Shown here: piece after piece, positions 8,308 to 54,210 of the stretch
How positions within the stretch are numbered: position 1 is the first letter of the stretch
How the letters are laid out: the number at the start of each line of letters is the position of its first letter
Source of the DNA: an uncultured virus (IMG/VR IMGVR_UViG_3300035210_000191)
Taxonomy: Duplodnaviria; Heunggongvirae; Uroviricota; Caudoviricetes
IMG/VR virus record: IMGVR_UViG_3300035210_000191
Length of the DNA stretch: 57,676 bases
Reading direction: 5' to 3' (one strand)
Made by a program: the position numbers and the translations under genes
Notes under the pieces: generated by a model
What the model was told of the DNA's origin: nothing
Databases searched by the model: none
Seen by the model: only the letters and a program-made list of their open reading frames with translations

Positions 8308-8403
8308 ACTTCTCCGCTCTATGCTTCTGTTAGAGGCATTATCTATTTAACTAAAAAATCAGCTACACACAAACACAATTAAATTTTCGTGGAGAAAAAT
8401 ATT

Positions 8404-13789: not shown

Positions 13790-14215
13790 ATGTTAACCAC
13801 AATTAAAAAGCTGTTTGGTTTCAAGGGTAAAGAGGTGGAAGAAGTTGCTTATATTTCCACATTAGAACATGCTAAAAAAGAAGACCATGAGCGTATCTTA
13901 GCAAAAGCTAGGCAAGAACGAGAGGATCGTGAAAGACGTGAGCGTGAACGTATGCGAACATCTGACAGTGGCAGTGATGTATTTTCTAATCCATTACACC
14001 CACTTAATCCGATAAGTCCTATCAACTTTAATAATTTTGATGATGATTCATCAAGCAAACATCGTAAGCATGAAAGTGGATTCTCGGATGGTGGTAGTCC
14101 GGCTTATCATCATAATACACATGGTGGTGAAAGTGGTGGTCATAGCCCTAGTGGTGGTGGTGGTGGTGGCGGGGATAGTGGTGGTGGCGGCGATGGCGGC
14201 GGCGGTGGTGATTAA
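13790..14215 (+). CDS. hypothetical protein with Gly/Ser/Asp/His-rich low-complexity tail
   Basis: 141 aa, AAGGAG RBS, GGT/GGC repeats. Confidence 0.75.
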   Translation: MLTTIKKLFGFKGKEVEEVAYISTLEHAKKEDHERILAKARQEREDRERRERERMRTSDSGSDVFSNPLHPLNPISPINFNNFDDDSSSKHRKHESGFSDGGSPAYHHNTHGGESGGHSPSGGGGGGGDSGGGGDGGGGGD

Positions 14216-14216
14216 T

Positions 14217-14239
14217 AAAGTCTCTTCGGAGGCTTTTTT
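14217..14239 (+). terminator. intrinsic terminator, C(UUCG)G loop
   Basis: AAAGTCTC-TTCG-GAGGCTTT plus T-tract. Confidence 0.75.
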
Positions 14240-14301
14240 ATTGACCAAAATTTAAATGTTTGCTATACTCTACCCATAGAAAACAAACAGGATTAAATCA
14301 A

Positions 14302-15210
14302 ATGTTTAAAGTAATTACGCATTCTCAACAATTTCACCTTGACGAATTGATGGCTGTTGCCCTTTTGGATCTGTATGTATTCAAGGGTGAAAAGTTTGAA
14401 CTCATTCGCACCCGAGATAAAACGATTGTTGCAGCAGGTCAAGATGACGCCAACACCTTTGTGATTGACGTAGGTTTGAAATATGACCCAGCTATGCGTA
14501 ACTTTGACCATCACCAGAACGACAGTAGCCTTTGCTGGCCTGATGGGGTGCCATTGTCTTCTTGTGGTATGGTTTGGAAATGGCTTCGTGATAACAAGAT
14601 TCTTCACCAGAAGATGAATGATGACACAATGAATATCTTTGAACGTGATTTTATTCGCCGTGTAGATATGCAAGATAACGGTATTTCAAAATTCAGTGAT
14701 TGTAATTTCTTGGTAATGTATAACCGTAAGCCCGATGATCCGCGTGAGCAAGACAAACAGTTCATGTATGCACTGAAAGCGGCAAAGTCACATTTGATTA
14801 ACTATTTTGCTTATGTTCGTGGTAACATGAAAGCGGAAAAATCCATTGTAAAAGCTATCAAAAACAGTGAGAAATATAAAGATATTGTAGTCTGTGATAG
14901 TAACATCAAGGATGCTGCCAAACGTATTGCTCAGTTGACTGATAAAAAGATGGTAATCTATCCTCACAGTAATGGGGCATGGGCTATCGAAACCGTTCCA
15001 TTGAATGCGAACGATGAATATTCAAAGAAAGTTCCAGCTCCAAAAGAGTGGTTGGGATTGAGCGGCGAAGAATTGGAAAAAGCTTCTGGTATTAAAGGCT
15101 TGTTCTTTTGCCATAAAGGGGCTTTTATCACCATGTTTAGAGGCGAGCTTGATGATGCGATTAAAGTTGCTCGTGTAATGATTTTGAAACATGAAGGCCA
15201 CATTCAGTAG
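14302..15210 (+). CDS. MYG1 family (DHH-like) exonuclease
   Basis: THSQQFHLDE, RTRD, DVG..YD, FDHHQ, LSSCG, FCHKGAF motifs. Confidence 0.88.
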   Translation: MFKVITHSQQFHLDELMAVALLDLYVFKGEKFELIRTRDKTIVAAGQDDANTFVIDVGLKYDPAMRNFDHHQNDSSLCWPDGVPLSSCGMVWKWLRDNKILHQKMNDDTMNIFERDFIRRVDMQDNGISKFSDCNFLVMYNRKPDDPREQDKQFMYALKAAKSHLINYFAYVRGNMKAEKSIVKAIKNSEKYKDIVVCDSNIKDAAKRIAQLTDKKMVIYPHSNGAWAIETVPLNANDEYSKKVPAPKEWLGLSGEELEKASGIKGLFFCHKGAFITMFRGELDDAIKVARVMILKHEGHIQ

Positions 15211-37718: not shown

Positions 37719-37747
37719 TTGAATTTTTTTAAGCGGGCTGCTATAAT
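37719..37747 (+). promoter_or_regulatory. sigma70 promoter for the Ser/Tyr leader
   Basis: TTGAAT-17-TATAAT; overlaps CCGCTT..AAGCGG inverted repeat. Confidence 0.7.
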
Positions 37748-37781
37748 GGATACTATTATTTACTTTGTGGAGAAATACAAA

Positions 37782-37832
37782 ATGAAACCTACATTTGCTG
37801 TATCCTATTATTATTCATCATATTCTAGTTAA
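37782..37832 (+). CDS. putative attenuator leader peptide MKPTFAVSYYYSSYSS
   Basis: GGAG RBS at 37769; last 9 codons all Ser or Tyr. Confidence 0.7.
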   Translation: MKPTFAVSYYYSSYSS

Positions 37833-37921
37833 CTGACCAGAGTAGAGGTCAGTTATGGCCTCGAATTCTTGGATAGTAATTATCTTAGACCCTTTGAAGG
37901 CCACCTTCAGAGGGTTTTTTT
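37830..37921 (+). promoter_or_regulatory. attenuator-like RNA structures ending in an intrinsic terminator
   Basis: TAACTGACC/GGTCAGTTA stem (37830-37855); TGGCCTCGAA/TTTGAAGGCCA alternative pairing; terminator ACCCTTTGAAGG-CCA-CCTTCAGAGGGT-T6 (37889-37921). Confidence 0.65.
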
Positions 37922-37961
37922 ATGTCCATAGTGGCAGGGTTAAGTTCAACCTAAAACAATG

Positions 37962-38011: not shown

Positions 38012-38040
38012 TTGACAAAGACGAAAGAAGTTGATAGAAT
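38012..38040 (+). promoter_or_regulatory. strong sigma70 promoter of the tRNA array
   Basis: TTGACA-17-TAGAAT with AT-rich UP-like region. Confidence 0.8.
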
Positions 38041-38202: not shown

Positions 38203-38286
38203 GGTTAGTTGGCAGAGTGGACGATTGCGGGGGACTGTAAATCCCTTCCGAAAGGCACGGTGGTTCGAATCCATCACTAACCACCA
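38203..38286 (+). tRNA. tRNA-Tyr(GUA)
   Basis: GGGGA-CT-GTA-AA-TCCCT, TTCGAAT loop, ACCA end. Confidence 0.93.
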
Positions 38287-38420: not shown

Positions 38421-38509
38421 GGACGCATTTCCTGTCATCCGCCTGTAAAGCGGACGCCTTTATAAGACAGGTCGGTTGGCGAGAGGTTCGAATCCTTGTG
38501 CGTTCACCA
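38421..38509 (+). ncRNA. non-canonical tRNA-Tyr(GUA)-like RNA lacking a D-arm, predicted pseudoknot
   Basis: acceptor GGACGCA/TGCGTTC-ACCA, anticodon arm TCCGC-CT-GTA-AA-GCGGA, T-loop TTCGAAT; CCTGTC complementary to GACAGG. Confidence 0.75.
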
Positions 38510-38531: not shown

Positions 38532-38619
38532 GGAAGCTTGGCCGAGTGGTTTAAGGCAACAGTCTTGAAAACTGTCGGGTGTAATAGCCCCGTGAGTTCG
38601 AATCCCACAGCTTCCGCCA
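38532..38619 (+). tRNA. tRNA-Ser(UGA)
   Basis: ACAGT-CT-TGA-AA-ACTGT, GCCA end. Confidence 0.95.
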
Positions 38620-38642: not shown

Positions 38643-38726
38643 GGGTGTTTCGCATAGAGGCCGATTGCGGCTGGCTGTAAACCAGCATCGAAAGACACGG
38701 TGGTTCGAATCCATCAACACCCACCA
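38643..38726 (+). tRNA. tRNA-Tyr(GUA)
   Basis: GCTGG-CT-GTA-AA-CCAGC, ACCA end. Confidence 0.93.
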
Positions 38727-38739
38727 AATTTATATTTAT

Positions 38740-38792
38740 GGAGAGTATGGGGCTGTTGTTATCTCGTAACAATGGTTAACCGCTATCCACCA
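38740..38792 (+). ncRNA. CCA-ended mini-hairpin tRNA-like RNA 1
   Basis: GGAGAGT/GCTATCC acceptor-like stem, internal 10-bp hairpin, ACCA end. Confidence 0.6.
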
Positions 38793-38796
38793 ACAT

Positions 38797-38884
38797 GGAA
38801 GCGTGGCCGAGTGGTTTAAGGCAACAGTCTTGAAAACTGTCGGGTGTAACAGCCCCGTGAGTTCGAATCTCACCGCTTCCGCCA
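38797..38884 (+). tRNA. tRNA-Ser(UGA)
   Basis: near-identical to the 38532 copy, GCCA end. Confidence 0.95.
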
Positions 38885-38890
38885 AATTAT

Positions 38891-38941
38891 GGGGAGAAGG
38901 GTTGTCTTTTATTTATAGAAGGCGATATCCGCTACCCACCA
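38891..38941 (+). ncRNA. CCA-ended mini-hairpin tRNA-like RNA 2
   Basis: GGGGAG/CTACCC stem, internal 11-bp hairpin, ACCA end. Confidence 0.6.
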
Positions 38942-38961
38942 TTTCATCGTCAAAAAACTTC

Positions 38962-38989
38962 AAGAACAACGCAATGTTGTTCTTTTTTT
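38962..38989 (+). terminator. terminator of the tRNA array
   Basis: AAGAACAAC-GCAAT-GTTGTTCTT plus T-tract. Confidence 0.85.
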
Positions 38990-39066: not shown

Positions 39067-40139
39067 ATGAAAATGAAGTTAAGATATTTTTTAGTGTTAT
39101 TGTTATCACTTGTCATATCAACAAGTCAAGCAAACTCTTTAACAAGTCACATACCTTTTTTTCCGTCTAAAAAAACTATTATTAAAGGTGTTCTGGTAAC
39201 TGGAACTATTGGAGTGCTTGGCTACTATGTTTATTCACAATTATCTAAATTTATTGAAAATACAATAAAAAAAATGATGAGGGAAAAATATCTGACTGGG
39301 AAACAGCTAATCTTATAGCTAAAGAAATTGATAAAATACTCAATAATCCTAAAAAAACAGATCAACAAAAAAGTCAAAGTGTTGTTGAAGCTCAACAATT
39401 GTTGCTTTATTATGCCATTGCGTACTATGAACCTAATGGAAACGATATTTATGATATTGCAATTAGGACCGCAAAAAAAGCAAATATTTATACTGGTGAT
39501 TTCGATTATGAGTTACAACAAGGCATTAAAATGACGACTGAAATTATGCGTAATATGATTTCATTAGCTAATGAAAAAGATATGGAAGATACTAAGTCAA
39601 AAAGAAATAAGTGTGATATTAATGATATAGCTGCTAGAACATATATTTACAATTCATTAAATCCAATTGATCCATTGTACACGGATGTTAATCGACCTAT
39701 ACGTGAATTTGACACTGGAGCTTATAAAAACTTAAACTTTGTAACCAAAAAATATGCAAAATTGTATAAAATAAAAGATAATTTTGATCATGATCATATT
39801 CCGTCTTTTGCTTCATTAAAAACTTATTTAGAAAATAGAGATCAATATGTAATAAATTTTGATAATAAATTAAGGAACGTTATTCAACAAAATGGCACTG
39901 TAGTTGCAATTAATCAAGCAATGTACGCTGCTGGGCGAACGTATAAGGGGCGAGCTACATCTACTATGATAAGAGATTCAAAAGATCTTAGAAAAGCAAC
40001 TATAAAAGATTTTAAGATGCATTATTATTATTACAAAAAAAATGGATCAAGTAACCCTAGTTTTGAAACTTTATTTAATAAAGCTTTTATACAAACGTAT
40101 CAAAGAAATAAAATGATGTGTTTATATGTTAACCGATAG
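39067..40139 (+). pseudogene. frameshifted secreted polymorphic-toxin-like gene (ORFs 39067..39318 and 39399..40139)
   Basis: signal peptide plus TM in frame 1; -1 frame open from 39258 across an A8 run at 39267-39274; C-terminal DHDHIPS...GRTYKG motif. Confidence 0.55.
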
Positions 40140-40749: not shown

Positions 40750-41652
40750 ATGTACCAATTACAATCATTTGCAAAAAATGAAAAAGGCAGAGACTTCATT
40801 GTGGGTGATATACATGGTATGTATGACTCATTAATGAAACTTCTCGAATCCGTCAACTTCGATAAAAACATTGATAGATTATTTTCTGTGGGTGATTTAA
40901 TAGATCGTGGACCAAAATCAATGGAGGTTCTTTATCTTAATAACCAGAGTTGGTTTTTCGCTGTATTGGGTAATCATGAAACCATGTTGCTCACTGGTCA
41001 TTTATCGTATTCCAAAGATTGGGTTACGCATTTAAGCAAGAAAGAAAAAGAAACATGTCTGGATATTATCAAGACCTTACCGATTGCTATTGAAATAGAA
41101 ACCAGTCTTGGCCCTATTGGATTGGTTCATGCCCAAGTCCCTACCCAGTTCAATGATTGGAATGAGTTCAAACACTATCTCACTGCAGCTAACCTATCCT
41201 ATGAAATGAGTTCTATTAATGATTCTGGTAGTGTGATTAGAGATGCGTTGTGGGGTAGGAAGCGTATTTACAGAGAGTTGAAAAAGAATGGTACCGCATT
41301 TGCCAGAAAAGCTTACATCAAATTTATTAAAGATGGCTTATGGAATAGAACGACCTTATACAGAATCATTACGACCAGAAAAACATTGCCTTACATTAAA
41401 CATGGGCTATCATTCTCATTCCGATACATCATCGAAAAATTTAAACGTAAATTACACCCACAAAGTTATATCGACAATATTGCCTATACCTTTCATGGAC
41501 ACACCCCCGTTAAGAAACCATTACTATTAGGTAATCAGTTCTTTATAGATACGGGAGCTGTGTATGGGATGAAGAAAAACAAACAAGGGTCTTTAACCAT
41601 GATTGAAATTTGTGATGATTTAAAAGTTCACACCTTACTCATTGACCAATAA
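40750..41652 (+). CDS. metallophosphoesterase, PphA/lambda NinI-like Ser/Thr phosphatase
   Basis: GDIHG, GDLIDRG, GNHE, HA, GHTP, IDTG motifs. Confidence 0.9.
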   Translation: MYQLQSFAKNEKGRDFIVGDIHGMYDSLMKLLESVNFDKNIDRLFSVGDLIDRGPKSMEVLYLNNQSWFFAVLGNHETMLLTGHLSYSKDWVTHLSKKEKETCLDIIKTLPIAIEIETSLGPIGLVHAQVPTQFNDWNEFKHYLTAANLSYEMSSINDSGSVIRDALWGRKRIYRELKKNGTAFARKAYIKFIKDGLWNRTTLYRIITTRKTLPYIKHGLSFSFRYIIEKFKRKLHPQSYIDNIAYTFHGHTPVKKPLLLGNQFFIDTGAVYGMKKNKQGSLTMIEICDDLKVHTLLIDQ

Positions 41653-46390: not shown

Positions 46391-47296
46391 TCAGATTTTA
46401 ATCATTTCTACCAGCACAAAATATTCTTTAAGTTCATCAATAGTGAGTTCGTTAACATCTGATTTTCTCATTTTTAATGTTTCACAAATAACATTTTTAG
46501 CTTCTGCCCTAAATTGATTTTCGAAAAAATCTGTCAATGATTGACTATCAACATCTATGCTATTCAACTTTCTCAAAAAATCATTTTTCAAGGGGACTTC
46601 ACTGGCAGCAAAATACATTTTTTTAGGATTATTTATTGGAATTATACACATTATTTTATTATGTGCTGAATAGGGGAATTTTATTTTAAAATATGGCTTA
46701 ATAGTTTCATCAGGCTCTACAAGATGAATTACTTCGATATTAATATAAGACTTCTTGAAATAATTCTTTTGAGCACCCCGGCCTCGTTGAAGAATATTAT
46801 TAAAGCTTACTGTTGCAATATTTTTGTCTTTGAATTTTAATTGATTGAAATAACCATCATTGTAGAAATGAGTGTTCATGTGTGGGATATATTTTTTCAT
46901 TTCGACACTGTTAATCAAACCAGACTCAATACCTTTGTTAATGAAAATATCGACAATATTGAGAGCTTTCTCAAAATCTGGTTTATATTTATCTTGAAGA
47001 AAATCAGCTATATTATTAGCTTTTTGACTAAGAACAGTTCGCAATGTCGGGCCATAAGACATAACACTTATTTCTGGGTAGTAGTGTAGTTTTTCTTGGC
47101 TGCTTTTAGTTTTATTTTCAAAATATATTTGCATAGTCCATTGATCATTTTCTGTTGTTGCTTTATAAATTGTAGCTGCAATATCATTATCAGAAAATCT
47201 TTGTTGTTCTACATTGTGTTGATTGAATACAAATAAAGGTGAAATGGATTTCACAAAATGATTAACAGATGACTTATTGAGTAGTGTTTTAAACAT
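46391..47296 (-). CDS. tandem-array paralog 2 of 9
   Basis: family motifs; start at MFK after GGAG. Confidence 0.8.
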   Translation of the reverse strand: MFKTLLNKSSVNHFVKSISPLFVFNQHNVEQQRFSDNDIAATIYKATTENDQWTMQIYFENKTKSSQEKLHYYPEISVMSYGPTLRTVLSQKANNIADFLQDKYKPDFEKALNIVDIFINKGIESGLINSVEMKKYIPHMNTHFYNDGYFNQLKFKDKNIATVSFNNILQRGRGAQKNYFKKSYINIEVIHLVEPDETIKPYFKIKFPYSAHNKIMCIIPINNPKKMYFAASEVPLKNDFLRKLNSIDVDSQSLTDFFENQFRAEAKNVICETLKMRKSDVNELTIDELKEYFVLVEMIKI

Positions 47297-47367
47297 GAAA
47301 GACTCCACAATTATGGCTAATTAATGTAGTATTATACCATAAAGGACTTGGCTAAGTCCATATTTTG

Positions 47368-48291
47368 TTATATTTTAATCATCTCTACCAGCATAAAATA
47401 ATCTTTTAATTCATCTGCAGATAAATTATCTAATTCAGTTTTCTTAATTTTCAATGTTTTAGAAATTGTTGTTTTTATTTCATTTTCGATTTCACCCTTA
47501 AAATATTCAGCTAACTTGTCTTTTTTTAAAGGCATTGAAATTATTTTATCAATAGGTGTTATTCTCAACGACTCAGAATCCCCCACCAAATAAAGTATAT
47601 CACCACCTGCTAGTGGAAGAACATAAGTGTTTTTATTCGTTGCTGATGTAGGTAGTTTTATTTGAAAATAGATATTTACTTCATTCATTGAGTCTACTAA
47701 ATAAACTACATTTATACATATAAACGATTTTTTAAAATGTGTTCCGTTTTTTCCTGTTCCCTTTTGAAGCACATTATTAAATTTAATACTCGCATAGTTT
47801 TTATCCCATAGCTTTATTTGTCCATGATAATGATTGATATGCATATGAGAAATCATGTGTTTTTTATATTTTTTCACATCAACACTGTTAAACATGCCAG
47901 AATGAAGACCTTGTTCAATAAAAATATCAATAATCTCAATAACTCTGTCAAAATCAGGGGTATAAGTTGTTTGTAAAAATTCAGCAATCTCTTTGCTTTT
48001 TTGGAATCTCTCAGCAACAGATTCTCCATTGTAATGGGTCATCTTAGATTTCAGATCTTTTTCGAATGAAACATAGGGATAAAACTTCTTTCTAATCATG
48101 TTGTCTTTTTTTGGACCATAAAATTGTGTTATTAATTGCCAGCCTTCGTCAGCTTGTGCTATATATTTTGTAGATTCAGAATCATTAAAACCATCGTAAT
48201 ATTCATCTGTGTATTTTGAGTATTTAAACAACGGCTCAAATATTTTGAGTATGTTATTGGCCTCTTGATAATTCTTGTATGAGTTAAACAT
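47368..48291 (-). CDS. tandem-array paralog 3 of 9
   Basis: family motifs; ends LVEMIKI. Confidence 0.8.
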   Translation of the reverse strand: MFNSYKNYQEANNILKIFEPLFKYSKYTDEYYDGFNDSESTKYIAQADEGWQLITQFYGPKKDNMIRKKFYPYVSFEKDLKSKMTHYNGESVAERFQKSKEIAEFLQTTYTPDFDRVIEIIDIFIEQGLHSGMFNSVDVKKYKKHMISHMHINHYHGQIKLWDKNYASIKFNNVLQKGTGKNGTHFKKSFICINVVYLVDSMNEVNIYFQIKLPTSATNKNTYVLPLAGGDILYLVGDSESLRITPIDKIISMPLKKDKLAEYFKGEIENEIKTTISKTLKIKKTELDNLSADELKDYFMLVEMIKI

Positions 48292-48317
48292 AATATTCTC
48301 CAAAACGTTCCATTCAA

Positions 48318-49247
48318 TTAAATCTTCAGCATTTCAACGAGTACAAAATACTCTTTCAATTCTTCTGGTGTTATTCCATCCATATCTGACTTATTAATTT
48401 TCAGTGTTTTAGAAATAGATGTTTTCATTTCTTTGTAAAACTCTTTATCAAAAAAATCTTTTAACTCTGTTTCGTCCATTGAAATTGAAGGCAATGTATC
48501 AATGCATTCTCTTCTCAATTTGTCATCGTTTGCCATAAAATAGACAATAGCCTTTCCTGTTAATGGAATCACACAGGTTGCTTTTCGAGACTCTGAATAT
48601 GGTAATCTTATTTTGAAATAAGGGTGCATTGTGTTATCAGAGTGAGCTAGATAATCAATAGATACACTAATGTAGGATTTTTTGTAGTGAGTAGTGCCAC
48701 GATAACCAGAAACCCCTTTCTGCAGGATATTATTAAAAGTTACTGTACCAAAGTTATTGTCACCAATGGTAATAGTTCCAGAATAATGATTGGTGTTTAA
48801 ATGAGTTTTCATCACTTTTTTGTATTTTCTCACTGCAAGGCTTTTAAACAGTCCACATTCAATTCCTTTCTCAACAAAGAGTTTAAGAACAGTAAACATT
48901 CTATCAAAATCTGGATTGTAGGTCTTTTGTAAGAGTTCCACAATTTCTTTGCCTTTAAGTCTTCTGTCTTTGTGTTGATCTTCGTCAAAATTACGAACAC
49001 GATCTCCCAGTTGTTTAAATTTAATTTCTGGGTAGTAGGACTTTTGATCACTTTTTGAATTTTTTTTGTTATAAAACTCAATATACAATTCCCAATTATC
49101 ATCAGTTATTGCCGTATAGGTTGTGACAGAGATGTTGAAATCCGTATAGGGCTTGAACTCTTCATTAAATTTGACAAAATTGAACACTTTTGAAAACAGA
49201 GTGACCAGATGATTGGCTTCTGGGTGGTTCGGATAGGTATTAAACAT
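48318..49247 (-). CDS. tandem-array paralog 4 of 9
   Basis: family motifs; ends LVEMLKI. Confidence 0.8.
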   Translation of the reverse strand: MFNTYPNHPEANHLVTLFSKVFNFVKFNEEFKPYTDFNISVTTYTAITDDNWELYIEFYNKKNSKSDQKSYYPEIKFKQLGDRVRNFDEDQHKDRRLKGKEIVELLQKTYNPDFDRMFTVLKLFVEKGIECGLFKSLAVRKYKKVMKTHLNTNHYSGTITIGDNNFGTVTFNNILQKGVSGYRGTTHYKKSYISVSIDYLAHSDNTMHPYFKIRLPYSESRKATCVIPLTGKAIVYFMANDDKLRRECIDTLPSISMDETELKDFFDKEFYKEMKTSISKTLKINKSDMDGITPEELKEYFVLVEMLKI

Positions 49248-49362
49248 AATATACTCCAAAAATATTTAATAATTGTATCATAAATAAATATTGATTGCTA
49301 TTTTTTTTGCAATAAAAAAAGACCTTTCTTAAGGTCTTTTATCGGACTTCATGAAAAGTCAG

Positions 49363-50304
49363 TTAAAACTTTACCATTTCTATTAGAATGAAATGGCTTT
49401 TCAATTCATCATCGGTCATTTTAACTAATTCAGTTCTTTTTATTTTCAGGGTTTTAGAAATGACATTTATTATTTCTTTTTTAAAGTTATCTCTAAAGAA
49501 TAATTCTAAATAAGCATTGTCAGTTGGGTGTTCTTTAAGGTTGTCAATATAGTCTTCTTTCAAATGACTGTCTTCACTGACAAAATACATTTTTGAACAA
49601 TCAAAAGAAAGAATGCAGTGTATTTTTTTGTGTGATGAATAGGGTAATTTAATTTTGAAGTATGGGTTAATTTTATTATCTTTACTAATGAGATACAAGA
49701 AATCTATACTTAAATGAGATTTTTTAAATTTCGTTTCATTTGCTCTTAATGTTTGCAGCACATTATTAAAAGTTATTTTTGCAGCGACTCTGCTGTTAAA
49801 AAACAACCTATTGTAACCATTGTAGGTGTTTTCATACCTGTAAAATTGCGTGCTAACATCTCCATTATGTGGAATTACTTTCACACTATTATAGATACCT
49901 GTGTTAATACCTTGTTGAAGATAGATTTCAATTATCTCCATCGCTCTTTTAAAGTCAGGTTTATATATTTTTTGAAAGTGCTCCATTATTTTTTCTGCTT
50001 GTAGCTTATTAGCGATTTCTTCATCAGGTGTTGCTGGTCTTTTAACACCTTTGTAATCAGAATGGTCTTGTTTTCTATTTTTTTCAAATTCTACAACAGG
50101 GTAATAGTATTTCGAATCAAGACCTTTGGCTTTATCTGTTTCAAACGTTGCTGTAATACTCCAATTATCATCAGTAGTTGCCACATAGGCTATTGAGTCA
50201 TACCACTTATGTTTAGTTTCATCGAAGTCTACAATATTTAATACAGGTTTAAATAATTTAACCAATTGATTGATTTCTTCATGATTATGGTGTTTTTCAA
50301 ACAA
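49363..50304 (-). CDS. tandem-array paralog 5 of 9
   Basis: probable TTG start after GGAG; ends LIEMVKF. Confidence 0.78.
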   Translation of the reverse strand: MFEKHHNHEEINQLVKLFKPVLNIVDFDETKHKWYDSIAYVATTDDNWSITATFETDKAKGLDSKYYYPVVEFEKNRKQDHSDYKGVKRPATPDEEIANKLQAEKIMEHFQKIYKPDFKRAMEIIEIYLQQGINTGIYNSVKVIPHNGDVSTQFYRYENTYNGYNRLFFNSRVAAKITFNNVLQTLRANETKFKKSHLSIDFLYLISKDNKINPYFKIKLPYSSHKKIHCILSFDCSKMYFVSEDSHLKEDYIDNLKEHPTDNAYLELFFRDNFKKEIINVISKTLKIKRTELVKMTDDELKSHFILIEMVKF

Positions 50305-50388
50305 GGGATTCTCCAAATTATTAATATAAATATCATAACATTAAAAACAACAAATACCATTGTATACGGATAATTTGATAGACTATTT

Positions 50389-51294
50389 TTACAACTCCAT
50401 CATCTCAACCAGAGTAAAATAGTCTTTTAATTCCTCGCTGGTCAATCCGTCTAACTCTTTTTCAGTAATTTTAAGGGTTTTAGAAATAATGTATACCATT
50501 TCATCTTTAAATTGATTTTTAAAAAATGATTTTAGAGAAGCAGGATCGGATGAGAACTTCATTACCTGATTAAAATAACCTTCTTTAAAAACGTTGTCTG
50601 CGTTGGTAAAATAAATCGTTGATTCGCCAGACAATGGAATGACACACGTCACTTTACGTTCAGTAGAATAAGGAATTCTAAGGACAAAATATGGTTTCAT
50701 TTTATTATCGTCACTGACTATATGCATAATTTTTACACTAATAGTTGCCTTTTTAAAAGCCGAGCTGTTTTTTCCTGAACCCTTTTTAAGAACATTGTTA
50801 AATGTTATATTTGCGATATTTTTTTCACAAAATCTCAAGTTTTTATAATAATCATCCACAATAAAGTGAGAACTCATACTTGGAGTGTATTTTTTCATCT
50901 CAACAGAGTGAAATAAACCCGATTTAACACCTTCGTCTATAAACAGTTGAATGACAGTTTTCACTTTCTCAAAATCAGGTTTATATACTTTTTCAAATTG
51001 TTCAACAATTTTTTTACATGTATTCTTTTTTTCAAACGTCATATAATTGTTTTTCAATTTTTTAAAGGTTATTTCTGGGCAAAAATGTTTGTGATTTTGA
51101 TTCGCTAAGAATCTGTTATGGAAAGAAACAATTAGACTCCAATCATCACTATTTGTGGCTTCATATACTGACTCACCGATATCAGTTTGATACTTTTTCT
51201 TGTTATCTTCTTTAAAACTAGAAAACACAAATAATGGTGACAATTTTTCAACAAGATCGTTTACTTCTGTATAGTTGGGCATTTCTGAAAACAT
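50389..51294 (-). CDS. tandem-array paralog 6 of 9
   Basis: family motifs; ends LVEMMEL. Confidence 0.8.
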   Translation of the reverse strand: MFSEMPNYTEVNDLVEKLSPLFVFSSFKEDNKKKYQTDIGESVYEATNSDDWSLIVSFHNRFLANQNHKHFCPEITFKKLKNNYMTFEKKNTCKKIVEQFEKVYKPDFEKVKTVIQLFIDEGVKSGLFHSVEMKKYTPSMSSHFIVDDYYKNLRFCEKNIANITFNNVLKKGSGKNSSAFKKATISVKIMHIVSDDNKMKPYFVLRIPYSTERKVTCVIPLSGESTIYFTNADNVFKEGYFNQVMKFSSDPASLKSFFKNQFKDEMVYIISKTLKITEKELDGLTSEELKDYFTLVEMMEL

Positions 51295-51327
51295 AATAAT
51301 CTCCGGTGGTGAATTATTTCAATAATT

Positions 51328-52236
51328 TTAAATCTTAACCATTTCGACAAGAATAAAGTACTCTTTCAATTCATCATTTGATAAACCAGTTAATTCAGAC
51401 TTCTTAATTTTTAATGCACCCACAATCACGTTCTTGACTTCATTTTGTAGTTCTTTTTCAAAGAAGTCTGATAATGATTTGTCATCCATTGAAACTTTTT
51501 CATTCAGGTTGTCCACATATTTTTCTTTTAACACGTTATCTGTTTCGGCTATATACATTTTAGAGCTTCTGCTCAATGGAATGATACAAGTCACTTTCTT
51601 TGTTGCTGAATAAGGTAGTCGGATTTTAAAGTAAGGCTTTAATTCATTATCTGAGCTGACCAAATAAATGATTTCTATATTGATGTAAGCTTTCGTGAAT
51701 GAACGACCTAAAGAACAATTATTTTTTTGAAGCACTTTATTTAACATGACAGTCGCATAGTTAGTGCCATTAAATGATATCTTCTGATAATACTTGTGCA
51801 TACCAAAGTAGTTACTGAGATGTTGCGTTTCATCTTTTAATTTCACATGATTAAACATACCAATATCAATACCTTTTTTTACAAAAATATCAATAAGGTT
51901 ACGAACTTGATCAAAATCAGGGGCATAGTTATTTTGAAATAGTTCAGTGAGTTCAGCCACCTTGTCTAGTTTTATGGCAGTCAGATAATCTGATACAGTG
52001 CGTTCAAACCTAATTTCAGGATAATAATGTTTTTGATCGTGTTTGCTTCGAAAACGGTTATTGAATGATACAACCAGTTTCCAATTATCATCAGTGCTGG
52101 CACTGTAAATAGTGGAGCCAATATCTCGCTCATAGCTTTTATGATTCTCTTCATGAAAGGTTGTGAAATTAAATACTGATGAAACCTGTTCTACCAGTTT
52201 ATTAACATCCTCACAATTCTTATATTTTTCAAACAT
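51328..52236 (-). CDS. tandem-array paralog 7 of 9
   Basis: family motifs; ends LVEMVKI. Confidence 0.8.
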   Translation of the reverse strand: MFEKYKNCEDVNKLVEQVSSVFNFTTFHEENHKSYERDIGSTIYSASTDDNWKLVVSFNNRFRSKHDQKHYYPEIRFERTVSDYLTAIKLDKVAELTELFQNNYAPDFDQVRNLIDIFVKKGIDIGMFNHVKLKDETQHLSNYFGMHKYYQKISFNGTNYATVMLNKVLQKNNCSLGRSFTKAYINIEIIYLVSSDNELKPYFKIRLPYSATKKVTCIIPLSRSSKMYIAETDNVLKEKYVDNLNEKVSMDDKSLSDFFEKELQNEVKNVIVGALKIKKSELTGLSNDELKEYFILVEMVKI

Positions 52237-52276
52237 AATTGGCTCCAAATAATTACCTAATTATAGCATACTTTCA

Positions 52277-53191
52277 TTAATATTGCACCATATCAATCAG
52301 TGTATAATATTGTTTTAATTCATCCATTGATAAAACTCCTACTTCCTTTTTATCTAAATTAAGCTTTTTAGCAATGCTAATTCTCATTTCATTTTGAAAA
52401 CACACTTTTAAGTAATCTTTAAAATCTTTTTCATTATTAGAGATAGCTGTTAATGTATCAATGTATTTATTTTTCCACAATGCATCTTTTTCAAAAAGAT
52501 AAAGTTCATTTTTATTTTCAAAAGACATCAAACAAGTCAGTTTCTTATCTGCATTGTAAGGCAGCGTTATTTTGAAATAAGGATGAAGCGTTTCATCAGA
52601 ATGGACTAAATACACAATTTCCATTTTCAATAGGGATTTTTTGTAATGAGAATTTTGATATCCCTGCCCTTGCTGAAGAACTTTGTTGTGAATAATCATC
52701 ATGACTTTTTTCTCAATAAAGCTTAATGTGCCGTGACGGTGACTATCAATAGTTAGATGACTAGTCATTTGAGGTGAATAGCATAACTCTTCGTTATTTA
52801 TGATAAGACACGATTCAATACCTTGTTCGACAAACCATTTGATAATTGTCATAGGAAGACTAAAATCAGGGTTATACTTTTCGTGTATTCTTTCACTCAG
52901 GGATTCTGCAAAATCGTAAAGTGCATAATTTCTGACGTTATTAAAATCTTTGTTAGTAACTGATATCTCTGCTTTATATTGTTTTTTAGCAGTCTTTTCT
53001 TTTGTGTTGCTTCGAAAGCGAATCAGAAAATTCCAGTCATTATCAATCGTGGTTGCTTTATAATCAGTACATCCAATGTCACGATTCATATTGAATCCAT
53101 TTTCGACATTAAGACTTTTAAATTGATAAAAGTCTTTAAATTGTTCTAAAAAGTGATAAGCTTCTTTGCTATTGGGATATTTTTCAAACAT
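52277..53191 (-). CDS. tandem-array paralog 8 of 9
   Basis: family motifs; ends LIDMVQY. Confidence 0.8.
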   Translation of the reverse strand: MFEKYPNSKEAYHFLEQFKDFYQFKSLNVENGFNMNRDIGCTDYKATTIDNDWNFLIRFRSNTKEKTAKKQYKAEISVTNKDFNNVRNYALYDFAESLSERIHEKYNPDFSLPMTIIKWFVEQGIESCLIINNEELCYSPQMTSHLTIDSHRHGTLSFIEKKVMMIIHNKVLQQGQGYQNSHYKKSLLKMEIVYLVHSDETLHPYFKITLPYNADKKLTCLMSFENKNELYLFEKDALWKNKYIDTLTAISNNEKDFKDYLKVCFQNEMRISIAKKLNLDKKEVGVLSMDELKQYYTLIDMVQY

Positions 53192-53227
53192 AGATAACTC
53201 CAAATAATTATTGATTACGATAAAAGT

Positions 53228-54145
53228 TTAAATGTTTACCATTTCAACAAGCACAAAATATTCTTTCAATTCATTAATGGTTAAGTCTTTCAAATCTGTT
53301 TTACTAATTTTCAAGCGAGTAGAAATTGTATTTTTGATTTGCCTCTCAAAGAGTTGTGTGAACAGGTCTTTGAGCTTACATTCAGTCAATGCTTCTGGTG
53401 TTTGTTGGTCAACGTGGTATTTATCCAAATGACCATCATCCAAAAAGAAATACACTTTATCTCCCAACATAGAGAGAACACAACTGATTTTCTTATTTTC
53501 AAAATACGGCAACCGAAGTTTAAAATAAGGGTGCATTGTATTATCAGAATGCACCAAGTAGATAAAATCTACATTGATGTAAGATTTCTTAAAATGTTTT
53601 GACTGGATACCTTCGCCTTTTTGAAGGACATTATTAAAATATACATCGGCCACGTTTTGATCTGTAATATGAATTTTATTGTCATAATAATGAGCTAAAA
53701 TATGTGATTCCATACTTTTTTTGTAGTATTTTTTATCCACTACGTTAATAACGCCTGCTTGGGTGCCTACATCAATGAACCAATCCATAATTTCAGTAAT
53801 TCTATCAAAATTAGGCGTATACATTGTTTCTAACATGCGAACAATCGTTTGAGCGTCATTTCTAATTTTATCAGAGTTGAACACTTGAACTTCATTGTCA
53901 ACAAAAACGAGTTTGGCGATCTTATGTTTCCGTTGTGTTTGATTTTTATGTGTTTCGAGTGGGTTCATGAAGATGACTTCAAGATCCCTTTGACCTGCTT
54001 GTGAAGTGGCTTCATACACAGTTTTAAAGACATAACCATGCCTGTCAGCGTAGTTTGCTTCTTTGAAATTACTGAATTTAAAATCATTTTCGAACGACTC
54101 CAAAAGAGCATTAACTTCAAGATGATTGGGATAGATTTCAAACAT
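53228..54145 (-). CDS. tandem-array paralog 9 of 9
   Basis: family motifs; ends LVEMVNI. Confidence 0.8.
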   Translation of the reverse strand: MFEIYPNHLEVNALLESFENDFKFSNFKEANYADRHGYVFKTVYEATSQAGQRDLEVIFMNPLETHKNQTQRKHKIAKLVFVDNEVQVFNSDKIRNDAQTIVRMLETMYTPNFDRITEIMDWFIDVGTQAGVINVVDKKYYKKSMESHILAHYYDNKIHITDQNVADVYFNNVLQKGEGIQSKHFKKSYINVDFIYLVHSDNTMHPYFKLRLPYFENKKISCVLSMLGDKVYFFLDDGHLDKYHVDQQTPEALTECKLKDLFTQLFERQIKNTISTRLKISKTDLKDLTINELKEYFVLVEMVNI

Positions 54146-54210
54146 AGCATTCTCCACAAATATTTGTCATATTATACCATAAAACATTAAAAATTACTAT
54201 TTAAACAGAC

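What the first reader, a model, noticed from the sequence alone, without database searches (positions are those of the whole stretch)
38740..38941. Two CCA-terminated mini-hairpin RNAs embedded in the tRNA array
Seen in sequence: 38740-38792 (53 nt) and 38891-38941 (51 nt) flank the last tRNA-Ser and share one architecture. Each starts 5' GG(A/G)GAG and ends 3' CCGCTA(T/C)CC-A-CCA, with the same G.A mismatch at acceptor position 4 and a compensatory change at pair 3 (A-T versus G-C). Each has an internal 10-11 bp hairpin of different sequence (GCTGTTGTTA/TAACAATGGT; GTTGTCTTTTA/TAGAAGGCGAT). Both are preceded by TAT, like the real tRNAs, and neither has an anticodon arm or a TTCGA T-loop. Established: acceptor minihelices can be RNase P and aminoacylation substrates, and T4 encodes non-tRNA stable RNAs in its tRNA cluster. 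Inference: a conserved tRNA-mimic class with a Tyr-like A73, possibly decoys for toxins that attack the acceptor end, or aminoacyl carriers.
Basis: partly seen in the sequence, partly recalled or inferred. Interest (0 to 1): 0.8.

Follow-up and report, generated by a model that had tools for sequence, protein, structure and literature searches.

The report
Phage tRNA-operon CCA-ended minihelix RNAs
Two hairpin RNAs of about 52 bases that copy only the amino-acid-accepting end of a tRNA sit like genes inside a giant phage's serine/tyrosine tRNA operon, and related phages keep them through matched base-pair changes, so they look like natural tRNA-end mimics whose job is still unknown.

Summary
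38740-38792 and 38891-38941 (+) are paralogous hairpins. Each has an acceptor-like stem with a purine-purine mismatch at 4:69, a 2-bp GG:CC step, an 11-12-bp hairpin, A73 and an encoded CCA. They are two of nine CCA-ended units in one promoter-to-terminator Ser/Tyr tRNA operon of an uncultured, low-GC huge phage that also encodes TyrRS.

Orthologues of the first hairpin occur at the same place in three other huge-phage array types (contigs of 437/604 kb, 520 kb and 1.86 Mb). Window and L029 copies differ at 9 of 53 positions without breaking a pair (P about 0.002). Peat-metagenome variants add further compensatory changes. A model built only from relatives finds both window copies.

They are therefore selected structured RNAs, not chance and not plain debris. 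Function is inferred, not shown. I favour a tRNA-processing-excised, non-decoding acceptor-end mimic acting in trans, within a Ser/Tyr cassette that fits counter-defence against tRNA-Tyr/Ser-cleaving immunity. The main rivals are cis processing marks, TyrRS-charged carriers and neutral remnants. No RNA data were obtained.

The closest known things are the T4/T5 "stable RNAs of unknown function". A conserved Ser/Tyr-rich leader peptide with terminator lies just upstream.

The parts
37719..37747 (+). Promoter-like site (TTGAAT-17-TATAAT) ahead of the small leader ORF
   Evidence: 10 of 12 matches, TG before -10; consensus match only
37782..37832 (+). 16-codon ORF MKPTFAVSYYYSSYSS: 9 of the last 9 codons are Tyr (4) or Ser (5). 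Candidate leader peptide
   Evidence: The S-Y-Y-Y-S...Y..S core is conserved in L016, L029 and L038 while the N-terminus and last residue vary
37833..37925 (+). Structured leader with alternative hairpins, an intrinsic terminator (stem 37887-37917) and a T run. Candidate attenuator
   Evidence: z -4.7 to -5.9. Rfam His_leader 32.2 bits, below its gathering score of 49, E 0.012
38012..38040 (+). Operon promoter-like site TTGACA-17-TAGAAT
   Evidence: 11 of 12; conserved in L016, L029 and L038
38093..38180 (+). tRNA-Ser(TGA)
38203..38286 (+). tRNA-Tyr(GTA)
   Evidence: same sequence in L016
38309..38392 (+). tRNA-Tyr(GTA)
38421..38509 (+). Non-canonical tRNA-Tyr-like RNA. It has a 7-bp acceptor stem, A73-CCA, a CTGTAAA anticodon loop and a TTCGAAT T-loop, but no D arm. 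ARAGORN and Rfam miss it
   Evidence: Four orthologues show three different, all-paired anticodon stems
38532..38619 (+). tRNA-Ser(TGA)
38643..38726 (+). tRNA-Tyr(GTA)
38740..38792 (+). Minihelix 1: acceptor-like stem (G.A at 4:69), GG:CC step, 12-bp hairpin with a 3-nt loop, A73, CCA. It lies 13 nt after tRNA-Tyr and 4 nt before tRNA-Ser
   Evidence: Orthologues in L016, L029 and L038
38797..38884 (+). tRNA-Ser(TGA)
38891..38941 (+). Minihelix 2, a paralogue: the same ends, an 11-bp hairpin of different sequence and a 4-nt loop. It lies 6 nt after the last tRNA-Ser and 20 nt before the terminator stem
   Evidence: Present with compensatory variants in other peat runs. Replaced by an endonuclease ORF in L029 and L038
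38962..38991 (+). Intrinsic terminator (stem 38962-38984 plus T run) closing the operon
   Evidence: same terminator in L029 and L038
8389..9663 (+). Phage tyrosyl-tRNA synthetase, full length with the C-terminal S4-like domain (context, 29 kb upstream)
   Evidence: phrog_9270 E 7e-152; PF00579 plus PF22421

Best explanation
The two elements are genes for small structured RNAs that descend from tRNA genes and keep only the acceptor end. Each has G1-C72, G2-C71, a 7-position stem with a purine-purine mismatch at 4:69, A73 and an encoded CCA, mounted on a long hairpin of free sequence.

They are transcribed with three tRNA-Ser, three tRNA-Tyr and one D-armless Tyr-like tRNA from one promoter-to-terminator unit.

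Inferred: like their neighbours they are cut at G+1 by RNase P, since every unit has A-2 T-1 G+1 G+2. The 4-20-nt trailers are then trimmed back to the encoded CCA, releasing stable RNAs of 51-53 nt.

Inferred, and my commitment: they act in trans as non-decoding mimics of the tRNA acceptor end. They would occupy or divert proteins that read the NCCA end and upper acceptor helix. The most likely targets are host immune effectors that cut or modify tRNA ends or class II tRNAs, inside a cassette whose other parts resupply tRNA-Ser and tRNA-Tyr. Binding or charging by the phage or host TyrRS is the second possibility.

My odds by layer: a real, selected RNA family about 0.85; excised by tRNA-processing enzymes about 0.7; a trans-acting end mimic or decoy about 0.4, which is the figure given as confidence.
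For: Shown:
- The same architecture occurs twice in the window and once (intact) in each of three other array types, always in the Ser/Tyr array and always on the tRNA strand.
- In the 98%-complete 437-kb relative the model hits only that array, one strong and one degenerate copy.
- Structure is conserved while sequence drifts. Window and L029 differ at 9 of 53 positions. Six of these form three double-compensatory pairs, two lie in the loop and one lies at the mismatch, so 0 pairs are broken. Random substitution gives this with P = 0.0023. The mini is 83% identical where the array as a whole is 88%.
- On the 5-copy alignment 85% of cells pair, against 35-66% when partners are slid. Three pairs change on both sides. 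The covariation score is reached by 2 of 500 shuffles.
- Contigs from other peat runs carry linked 38742 A>G with 38786 T>C (pair 3:70), and 38905 T>G with 38922 G>C (T.G to G-C).
- Many G.T pairs and the poor minus-strand folds point to an RNA on the + strand.
- G1-C72, G2-C71, A73 and CCA are invariant in 5 of 5 copies, while loops differ in every copy.
- There is one promoter, one terminator and nine units, all with AT before G1 and all ending in CCA.
- Mini1 sits between two tRNAs that would be normally spaced without it, so a punctuation role does not explain the conserved copy.

Context:
- TyrRS in the window; SerRS and TyrRS in the relative.
- The operon holds only Ser and Tyr species, and a Ser/Tyr-codon leader peptide with a terminator lies just upstream.

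From papers (passages read):
- Septu and retron-Eco7 PtuAB cut tRNA-Tyr in the variable loop, and extra phage tRNA-Tyr rescues infection (PMC13096335, PMC12673091).
- A type I-A retron HNH nuclease depletes all tRNA-Ser (PMC12475279).
- Cas12a3 cuts CCA tails and accepts a bare hairpin with a 3' CCA as substrate (PMC12851939).
- MenT and CapRel inactivate tRNAs through acceptor-stem modification, according to a Discussion passage of 10.64898/2026.07.10.737580.
Against:
- A stoichiometric decoy against an enzyme is weak in principle. No defence system of the unknown host is known.
- The stem has a mismatch and two bulges instead of the continuous 12-bp helix of classical minihelix substrates, so RNase P, EF-Tu or aaRS recognition is not assured.
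- Mini2 is dispensable: L029 and L038 have an endonuclease ORF in its place, and joints in runs X2 and X7 skip it.
- One copy in L016 (5161-5213) has lost its 5' strand.
- One population variant (38902 T>G, run X5) breaks a pair uncompensated.
- Only 5 sequences from one clade support the covariation. Three of them are close relatives.
- The persistence of the 4:69 mismatch could follow from transitions alone (G.A, A.A and A.G are linked by transitions).
Confidence: 0.4

Rival explanations
1. Cis-acting processing marks. The hairpins exist only to give RNase P extra cutting sites, so that neighbouring tRNAs get short, easily trimmed trailers or leaders. Mini2 would separate the last tRNA-Ser from the terminator hairpin. 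Once released, the hairpin has no function.
For: - All units share AT|GG and encoded CCA.
- Spacers next to the minis are the shortest in the operon: 13, 4 and 6 nt, against 22-28 nt elsewhere.
- Mini2 lies exactly between the last tRNA and the terminator.
- Every mini1-type copy is followed after 4 nt by a tRNA-Ser in 4 of 4 array types.
Against: - Mini1, the copy conserved in all genomes, sits between two tRNAs that would need no extra mark.
- L029 and L038 do without a mark after the last tRNA-Ser.
- A 12-bp helix would be enough for such a mark, yet a hairpin of about 20 bp with conserved bulges, A73 and G1-C72 is kept.
Confidence: 0.25
2. Aminoacylated minihelices. The RNAs are charged, most likely with tyrosine by the phage or host TyrRS through G1-C72 and A73. 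They would then serve as aminoacyl carriers or as a sink or regulator of TyrRS.
For: - G1-C72 and A73 are invariant.
- A73 (with U35) is described as critical for tyrosylation in E. coli and yeast, and G1-C72 as the bacterial acceptor-stem element (passages of PMC9976931).
- The window has a full-length TyrRS.
- Recalled, not seen here: minihelix-Tyr is charged weakly by bacterial TyrRS (Schimmel laboratory, 1990s).
Against: - The anticodon (U35) and the long variable arm, the other tyrosine determinants, are absent.
- A73 is common to many tRNA species.
- The ends resemble tRNA-Ser (G73) as much as tRNA-Tyr.
- The 4:69 mismatch and the bulges may hinder binding by TyrRS or EF-Tu.
- No transferase that uses aminoacyl-tRNA was looked for or found.
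Confidence: 0.12
3. Neutral remnants. These would be internally deleted tRNA gene copies left by the duplication and recombination that shaped the array, hitch-hiking with the adjacent tRNA-Ser and not yet purged.
For: - The array is plastic. Gene order and content differ among the four types, and a PD-(D/E)XK endonuclease gene comes and goes.
- One degenerate copy exists in L016.
- Mini2 shows presence/absence variation.
- The 5' and 3' ends look like those of tRNA-Ser or tRNA-Tyr.
Against: - 9 substitutions with 0 broken pairs between window and L029 (P 0.0023).
- Further compensatory changes in L016 and in population variants.
- At least one intact copy in 4 of 4 array types.
- Hairpin sequences differ completely between mini1 and mini2, yet both stay paired.
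Confidence: 0.12
4. DNA-level element. The sequence would be a recognition or recombination site for the homing-type endonuclease found at the same place in relatives.
For: - The PDDEXK_5 ORF occupies mini2's slot in L029 and L038.
- A remnant of the ORF follows a 'GGGG' start in L016.
Against: - The conservation pattern is that of RNA pairing with G.T pairs on one strand.
- Mini1 is conserved both with and without the endonuclease gene.
Confidence: 0.03

Closest known systems
Small 'stable RNAs of unknown function' in the tRNA clusters of phages T5 (RNAI, RNAIII, RNA1, RNA2, RNA3, RNAIV) and T4 (rnaC/species 1, rnaD/species 2)
   Same: They are encoded among phage tRNA genes on the tRNA strand with spacers of 0-6 nt. 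Several have an acceptor-like terminal stem and an encoded CCA: T5 RNAI ends GAGCC-G-CCA, T5 RNA3 ends in ACCA, and T4 rnaD runs into CACCA. Their function is unknown (annotations and sequences).
   Different: They are 73-172 nt with several arms, and some have a T-arm (T4 rnaC; T5 RNA1, RNA2, RNA3). The minis are single 51-53-nt hairpins without a T-loop. There is no sequence or structure homology: model R1 found 0 hits in the T4 and T5 regions.
Synthetic acceptor/T-arm minihelices and microhelices (model substrates of RNase P, aaRS, the CCA-adding enzyme and EF-Tu). The properties are recalled; minihelix charging for Ala, His and Cys was seen in passages of PMC9976931
   Same: Acceptor stem, discriminator and CCA on a hairpin, with no anticodon.
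   Different: Those are laboratory constructs with a continuous 12-bp helix and a 7-nt T-loop. Here the element is natural and genetically encoded: 7 bp with an R.R mismatch, a 1-2-nt bulge, 2 bp, a 2-nt bulge, and 11-12 bp closed by a 3-4-nt loop.
Phage tRNAs as counter-defence against tRNA-cleaving immunity (T5/SP15 tRNA-Tyr against retron-Eco7; amplified T6 tRNA-Tyr against Septu; T5 tRNA-Lys against PARIS)
   Same: A phage tRNA cassette enriched for the very species (Tyr, Ser) that PtuAB-type HNH nucleases attack. The array is plastic and has an adjacent homing-type endonuclease gene.
   Different: Known cases use full, decoding tRNAs that replace or out-titrate the host tRNA. The passages and abstracts I read describe no anticodon-less mimic. 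No defence system is known for this host.
Hairpin-plus-CCA minimal substrates and reporters of Cas12a3 (PMC12851939, passages)
   Same: [quoted passage not shown]
   Different: Those are engineered reporters. No natural decoy is described there, and the paper says viruses would need 'yet unknown' means of resistance.
CCA-ended minihelices noted in other phage tRNA arrays by earlier agents of this scan (e1-5854192, e1-5733862, e1-5889013, e1-6062726, e1-5888799, e1-5804229; unchecked AI notes)
   Same: Hairpin, one base and CCA, laid out like genes between phage tRNAs. Some are reported as conserved through matched pair changes.
   Different: Where a length is given, those are 34-36 nt (about 12 bp). 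The present family is 51-53 nt, has bulges and a mismatch, and sits in a Ser/Tyr-only operon. No sequence look-alike was found by the scan's index.

Membership tests
Canonical tRNA (Rfam RF00005) | Cloverleaf with D arm, 7-nt anticodon loop and T arm with a TTCRA loop | tested here: not met
   ARAGORN finds 6 tRNAs and none at the minis. Rfam tRNA matches only the 6 tRNAs at E up to 10. Loops are 3-4 nt and there is no TTCGA.
Canonical tRNA (Rfam RF00005) | 7-bp acceptor stem, discriminator and 3' CCA | tested here: met
   6 of 7 (mini1) and 5 of 7 (mini2) positions pair. A73 and encoded CCA are present.
Classical acceptor/T-arm minihelix | Continuous coaxial helix of about 12 bp closed by a 7-nt T-loop | tested here: not met
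   The helix is interrupted by the 4:69 mismatch, a 1-2-nt 5' bulge and a 2-nt 3' bulge. There are about 20 bp in all and the loop is 3-4 nt.
Classical acceptor/T-arm minihelix | Substrate of RNase P, the CCA-adding enzyme or an aaRS | not testable with these tools
   Only the signals are present: T at -1, G1-C72 and ACCA.
T4/T5 tRNA-cluster stable RNAs | Encoded within a phage tRNA cluster, on the same strand, tightly spaced | tested here: met
   Spacers are 13, 4 and 6 nt, inside one promoter-terminator unit. For comparison, see T4 and T5.
T4/T5 tRNA-cluster stable RNAs | Sequence or structure homology to rnaC, rnaD, RNAI, RNAIII, RNA1, RNA2 or RNA3 | tested here: not met
   R1 gave 0 matches at E up to 10 in 97,859 bases that include the T4 and T5 clusters. 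Sizes and folds differ.
T4/T5 tRNA-cluster stable RNAs | Accumulates as a discrete stable RNA in infected cells | not testable with these tools
Armless (D- and T-arm-lacking) mitochondrial-type tRNA | Anticodon stem with a 7-nt loop carrying T33 and an anticodon | tested here: not met
   Loops are CTC, GTT, GTC, ACT and TTTA. ARAGORN's mitochondrial mode is silent except for one call among 8 spurious ones at -ps90.
tRNA pseudogene or remnant | Neutral decay: substitutions break pairs at the random rate | tested here: not met
   9 substitutions and 0 broken pairs, P 0.0023. The degenerate L016 copy (5161-5213) does fit this description.

The most novel reading that the evidence does not exclude
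A clade of huge soil and peat phages carries a self-regulating anti-immunity RNA cassette. A Ser/Tyr-codon leader peptide senses loss of charged tRNA-Ser or tRNA-Tyr, for example after attack by PtuAB-type or tail-cutting nucleases. It then lets transcription read into an operon that supplies replacement tRNAs, a D-armless tRNA-Tyr variant, and genetically encoded minihelices. The minihelices act as natural acceptor-end decoys, or as tyrosine-charged minihelices made by the phage's own TyrRS. That would be the first natural use of the 'minihelix' known from in-vitro work.
Probability: 0.15. Interest if true: 0.85.

Novelty: new variant of a known kind. Interest (0 to 1): 0.6.

Why it matters
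Minihelices (acceptor stem plus CCA, no anticodon) have been laboratory tools for the 'operational RNA code', RNase P and, more recently, Cas12a3 reporters. I found no paper describing natural genes for them.

This family is kept by selection in phages of 437 kb and more, inside an operon devoted to the two tRNA species that PtuAB-type immune nucleases are known to attack. The phages also encode TyrRS, and the relative encodes SerRS as well. If the RNAs are made, they give a concrete, testable candidate for several roles:
- RNA decoys against tRNA-end-directed immunity.
- Natural minihelix charging.
- An explanation of the long-unexplained T4/T5 'stable RNAs'.

The candidate Ser/Tyr leader-peptide attenuator upstream would be an unusual way to control a tRNA operon.

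Tried and rejected
- Closest phages. DNA searches of 50,697 phage records found only tRNA-length matches; 0 records covered 80% or more of the query. The window is not close to any deposited phage. Its protease is 39% identical at best and its TyrRS 45-48%.
- First strict pattern in IMG/VR. It gave 15 loci, 0 of 15 with a tRNA nearby, so all are chance matches.
- Relaxed pattern in IMG/VR. Only 1 of 120 has tRNAs, and that is the already known 437-kb contig.
- Flanking proteins as baits. They found no relatives in IMG/VR. The first metagenome scan with alignment A1 found nothing.
- An 18-mer of the odd tRNA. The IMG/VR scan returned 0 although L016 contains it. I treat this as a limit of the scan, not as absence.
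- Genome collection scan. It gave 4 loci, all bacterial tRNA-Ser contexts unrelated to the minis.
- Other tRNA arrays of the 437-kb relative. My acceptor-plus-CCA descriptor was too lax and produced many chance candidates. Reading the gaps showed a small ORF and one odd tRNA-like stretch, and no mini. R1 also found none there.
- Origin of the minis. End-alignments to all array tRNAs are ambiguous between tRNA-Ser and tRNA-Tyr, so I make no claim.
- RNA runs. Six listed RNA or RNA-guessed runs held only 0.06-0.13 of the sampled words, probably conserved tRNA parts. This says nothing about expression.
- Reading the hairpin loop as an anticodon (CTC in mini1). Rejected, because the loops are 3-4 nt and differ in every copy.
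- Attenuator logic. Thermodynamic folds always keep the 14-bp terminator. A 5-6-bp GGCCTC:GA(A/G)GGCC antiterminator is only my reading of the sequences.
- Earlier notes for this genome (by place) and for the array (by sequence look-alike): none.
Full report
**1. The observation**

The two stretches are as described.
- Mini1 (38740-38792, 53 nt) starts GGAGAGT and ends GCTATCC-A-CCA.
- Mini2 (38891-38941, 51 nt) starts GGGGAGA and ends GCTACCC-A-CCA.
- Positions 1, 2, 3, 5 and 6 pair with 72, 71, 70, 68 and 67 in both.
- Pair 3:70 is A-T in mini1 and G-C in mini2. Position 4:69 is G.A in both. Pair 7:66 is T.G in mini1 and A.G in mini2.
- Then come 1-2 unpaired bases, a GG:CC step, a hairpin of 12 or 11 pairs with a 3- or 4-base loop, and 2 unpaired bases on the 3' side.

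Both fold this way on the + strand (-16.3 kcal/mol each; z -1.9 and -2.2). The complements fold poorly. The shared 13-nt 3' motif occurs twice against 0.01 expected. ARAGORN and Rfam see six ordinary tRNAs and nothing at the two sites.

**2. The setting**

The window is a low-GC (about 0.27-0.39) stretch. Only 10 of the 66 ORFs I scanned match a PHROG. The matches include a head-maturation protease and a full-length tyrosyl-tRNA synthetase (8389-9663). No whole genome is held and no deposited phage is close.

The tRNA region is a compact unit.
- A near-consensus promoter lies at 38012-38040 and an intrinsic terminator at 38962-38984.
- Between them lie nine units that all begin G-G after A-T and all end in an encoded CCA.
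- In order they are: Ser(TGA), Tyr, Tyr, an 89-nt Tyr-like RNA without a D arm, Ser(TGA), Tyr, mini1, Ser(TGA), mini2.
- Spacers between ordinary units are 22-28 nt. Those beside the minis are 13, 4 and 6 nt.

**3. Relatives**

The phosphatase-like gene 1.8 kb downstream led to a 437,043-bp IMG/VR contig (79% amino-acid identity). CheckV rates it 98% complete. It carries 27 tRNAs, a SerRS, a TyrRS and two more synthetase-like genes.

A junction pattern (CCACCA, 2-8 nt, tRNA-Ser start) found 16 metagenome loci. 4 of the 16 carry the same kind of array: L028 (604 kb) and L040 (the 437-kb contig again), which share one array type, plus L029 (520 kb) and L038 (1.86 Mb). The other 12 are ordinary tRNAs or unrelated.

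Each of the three array types has one intact orthologue of mini1 at the same place, after a tRNA-like unit and 4 nt before a tRNA-Ser. L016 also has a second, degenerate copy (5161-5213). Its hairpin and 3' strand survive but its 5' strand is lost.

Mini2's slot after the last tRNA-Ser is different in relatives. In L029 and L038 it holds a 130-132-codon ORF of the PD-(D/E)XK endonuclease family PF11645. L016 holds a broken remnant of that ORF (read by eye).

**4. Selection on structure**

A covariance model of the five intact copies finds only these sites:
- two in the window;
- one intact plus one weak in the whole 437-kb relative.

It finds nothing in 97,859 bases of other phage tRNA arrays, including T4 and T5. 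A model built without the window's copies still ranks them first and second in the window.

- On the five-copy alignment, 85% of cells pair, against 35-66% when partners are slid. Three pairs change on both sides. Pair 4:69 is never a standard pair, 0 of 5.
- Window and L029 differ at 9 of 53 positions. Three are double compensatory pairs (3:47, 18:32 and 19:31 in element numbering), two are loop bases and one is the mismatch base. No pair is broken. Random substitutions do this in 0.23% of trials.
- The element is no better conserved in sequence (83%) than the array as a whole (88%).
- L016's copy adds one more double change, three one-sided pair-keeping changes and a 2x2 internal loop (read).

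Contigs of four other peat-metagenome runs were laid on the array at 80% likeness or more.
- They confirm both minis in independent data. Two contigs of run X5, with one differing letter each, span Tyr3-mini1-Ser3 and Ser3-mini2-terminator.
- They show linked variants: 38742 A>G with 38786 T>C (pair 3:70), and 38905 T>G with 38922 G>C (T.G to G-C).
- They show two one-sided changes that keep pairing (38780, 38906).
- They show one change that breaks a pair (38902 T>G).
- Joints from 38884 to 38962 in two runs indicate alleles without mini2.

These are contigs, so counts are not frequencies. The table omitted 94 further differences.

**5. What the evidence does not show**

- There is no RNA evidence.
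- The origin is unresolved. The ends resemble tRNA-Ser (GGAAG......ACCGCT) and tRNA-Tyr (...CCCACCA) about equally.
- The 4:69 mismatch takes three purine-purine forms: G.A, A.A and A.G. Transitions alone would keep it a mismatch, so I do not count it as strong evidence of selection.

**6. Mechanism**

Shown: these are strand-specific, selected hairpins with an invariant tRNA-like end, inside one transcription unit with tRNAs.

Inferred from established tRNA biology (recalled): bacterial RNase P cuts before G+1 of acceptor-type helices carrying a 3' RCCA and prefers U at -1. Short 3' trailers are trimmed by exonucleases back to CCA. The minis have all these signals, so they should be released as CCA-ended RNAs of 51-53 nt.

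What they do then is open. I favour a trans-acting acceptor-end mimic, for these reasons:
- The copy conserved everywhere (mini1) lies between two tRNAs that need no extra cutting mark.
- The conserved letters are those that proteins read at the acceptor end (G1-C72, G2-C71, A73, CCA). The body is free in sequence but long and stable.
- The operon's content points to conflict over tRNA-Ser and tRNA-Tyr.

Passages I read support that last point.
- Septu and retron-Eco7 PtuAB nucleases cut the tRNA-Tyr variable loop, and this is overcome by more or variant phage tRNA-Tyr (PMC13096335, PMC12673091).
- A type I-A retron HNH nuclease depletes all tRNA-Ser (PMC12475279).
- Cas12a3 cuts CCA tails and accepts a bare hairpin with CCA (PMC12851939).
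- MenT and CapRel inactivate tRNAs through acceptor-stem modification, according to a Discussion passage of 10.64898/2026.07.10.737580. FaRel2 pyrophosphorylates the CCA end and inspects the acceptor stem (abstract start in the listing).

Charging by TyrRS is possible. A73 and G1-C72 are bacterial tyrosine elements (passages of PMC9976931). But U35 and the long variable arm are missing.

The rivals are cis processing marks, charged carriers, neutral remnants and a DNA-level endonuclease site. They are weighed in their own sections.

**7. A regulatory element just upstream (outside the given coordinates)**

Between the preceding gene and the operon promoter lie three things:
- a promoter-like site at 37719-37747;
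- a 16-codon ORF at 37782-37832, MKPTFAVSYYYSSYSS;
- a highly structured leader ending in a strong terminator at 37887-37917 (z -4.7).

Rfam's His-leader model matches it weakly: 32 bits, below the gathering score of 49.

The ORF is present in all four array types. The Ser/Tyr core is kept while other residues change: MKPTFKFSSSYYYSYSR in L029 and MKTTLMTTSYYYSYYSH in L016. The hairpins keep pairing, with 3 pairs changed on both sides.

This looks like a leader-peptide attenuator that reads the supply of charged tRNA-Tyr and tRNA-Ser and sits in front of the Ser/Tyr tRNA operon. The on/off logic is only my reading of alternative pairings (CTGACC:GGTCAG, GAGGTCA:TGGCCTC, GGCCTC:GA(A/G)GGCC, terminator). 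Folds always keep the terminator. I found no paper on leader-peptide control of a phage tRNA operon in one search (listing only).

**8. Comparison with what is known**

T5 and T4 carry annotated 'stable RNAs with unknown functions' among their tRNAs, several with acceptor-like stems and CCA. That is the nearest published kind. The present family differs in size, in fold (a single hairpin with no T arm) and in sequence.

Searches for natural phage minihelices in the paper library found nothing relevant.

Earlier, unchecked notes of this scan describe CCA-ended hairpins, 34-36 nt where a length is given, in other phage tRNA arrays. I did not test them. They suggest a wider, still undescribed phenomenon, of which this would be a longer, bulged variant tied to a Ser/Tyr operon.

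**9. Verdict**

- The feature is real and selected, and belongs to a clade-restricted family.
- Its function is unproven.
- It is a new variant of the known kind 'tRNA-like small RNAs in phage tRNA clusters'.
- Interest is moderate to high because it is directly testable and sits in a coherent Ser/Tyr cassette: tRNAs, an odd tRNA, TyrRS (plus SerRS in the relative) and a leader peptide.

Noticed in passing
window 37719-37925 (+): A small transcription unit: a promoter-like site, a 16-codon ORF MKPTFAVSYYYSSYSS (4 Tyr and 5 Ser in the last 9 codons), alternative hairpins and a strong intrinsic terminator. It lies directly upstream of the Ser/Tyr tRNA operon. The Ser/Tyr core is conserved in L016, L029 and L038. 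There is a weak Rfam His_leader match. It is a candidate leader-peptide attenuator for a tRNA operon.
   Followed up: partly
window 38421-38509 (+); L016 5330-5418; L029 1806-1894 (-); L038 1805-1894 (-): An 89-90-nt tRNA-Tyr-like RNA missed by ARAGORN and Rfam. It has a perfect acceptor stem, A73-CCA, a CTGTAAA anticodon loop and a TTCGAAT T-loop, but no D arm. A 6-bp helix (CCTGTC/GACAGG) brackets the anticodon arm. The four orthologues show three different, fully paired anticodon stems and a compensatory change at acceptor pair 7:66, so it is under selection.
   Followed up: partly
window 8389-9663 (+): A full-length bacterial-type tyrosyl-tRNA synthetase (PF00579 plus the SYY C-terminal/S4 domain). 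Its best phage matches are 45-48% identical (jumbo phages GAP32, CBB, fHe-Yen9). The 437-kb relative also has a SerRS 12 kb upstream of its TyrRS.
   Followed up: partly
L029 1022-1414 (-); L038 1016-1414 (-); remnant in L016 about 5600-5700: A 130-132-codon PD-(D/E)XK endonuclease (PF11645, phrog_5018) occupies the slot after the last tRNA-Ser, where the window has mini2. L016 holds a stop-interrupted remnant. It suggests a mobile homing-type gene that reshapes the array end.
   Followed up: partly
window 39067-39318 and 39399-40139 (+): These two ORFs correspond to the N- and C-terminal parts of one 361-aa protein in a relative (P0002, 65% identical). It has a signal-peptide-like start. The window's gene therefore looks split or frameshifted, or misassembled.
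   Followed up: partly
window 40750-41652 (+): A calcineurin-like metallophosphoesterase (NinI-like, phrog_246) 1.8 kb downstream of the array. It also matches weakly the phosphatase part of a PHROG named 'RNA ligase' (phrog_8238). A role in RNA end healing is only a thought.
   Followed up: no
window 46391-54157 (-): Eight consecutive ORFs of 301-317 codons with no PHROG match. By size and arrangement they look like a tandem paralogue family. Similarity among them was not checked.
   Followed up: no
L043 (G001 374500-390000): 1448-1521, 14663-14738, about 14171-14380: In the 437-kb relative, ARAGORN calls a tRNA with anticodon CTA (amber-reading, labelled 'Pyl') and a tRNA with a four-base anticodon 'agaa'. 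A short ORF sits between tRNAs. These are possible hints of stop-codon or frameshift suppression.
   Followed up: no
L045 (G001 214400-215600) 752-853: A stretch after tRNA-Ser(TGA) contains GGTTCGAATCC and ends in CCA, but no tRNA is called there. It is another possible non-canonical tRNA-like RNA.
   Followed up: no
L038 (contig Ga0308158_10000001): One relative's array lies on a contig of 1,859,102 bp, far above known phage sizes. It may be a concatenated or chimeric assembly, or something else. Not examined.
   Followed up: no
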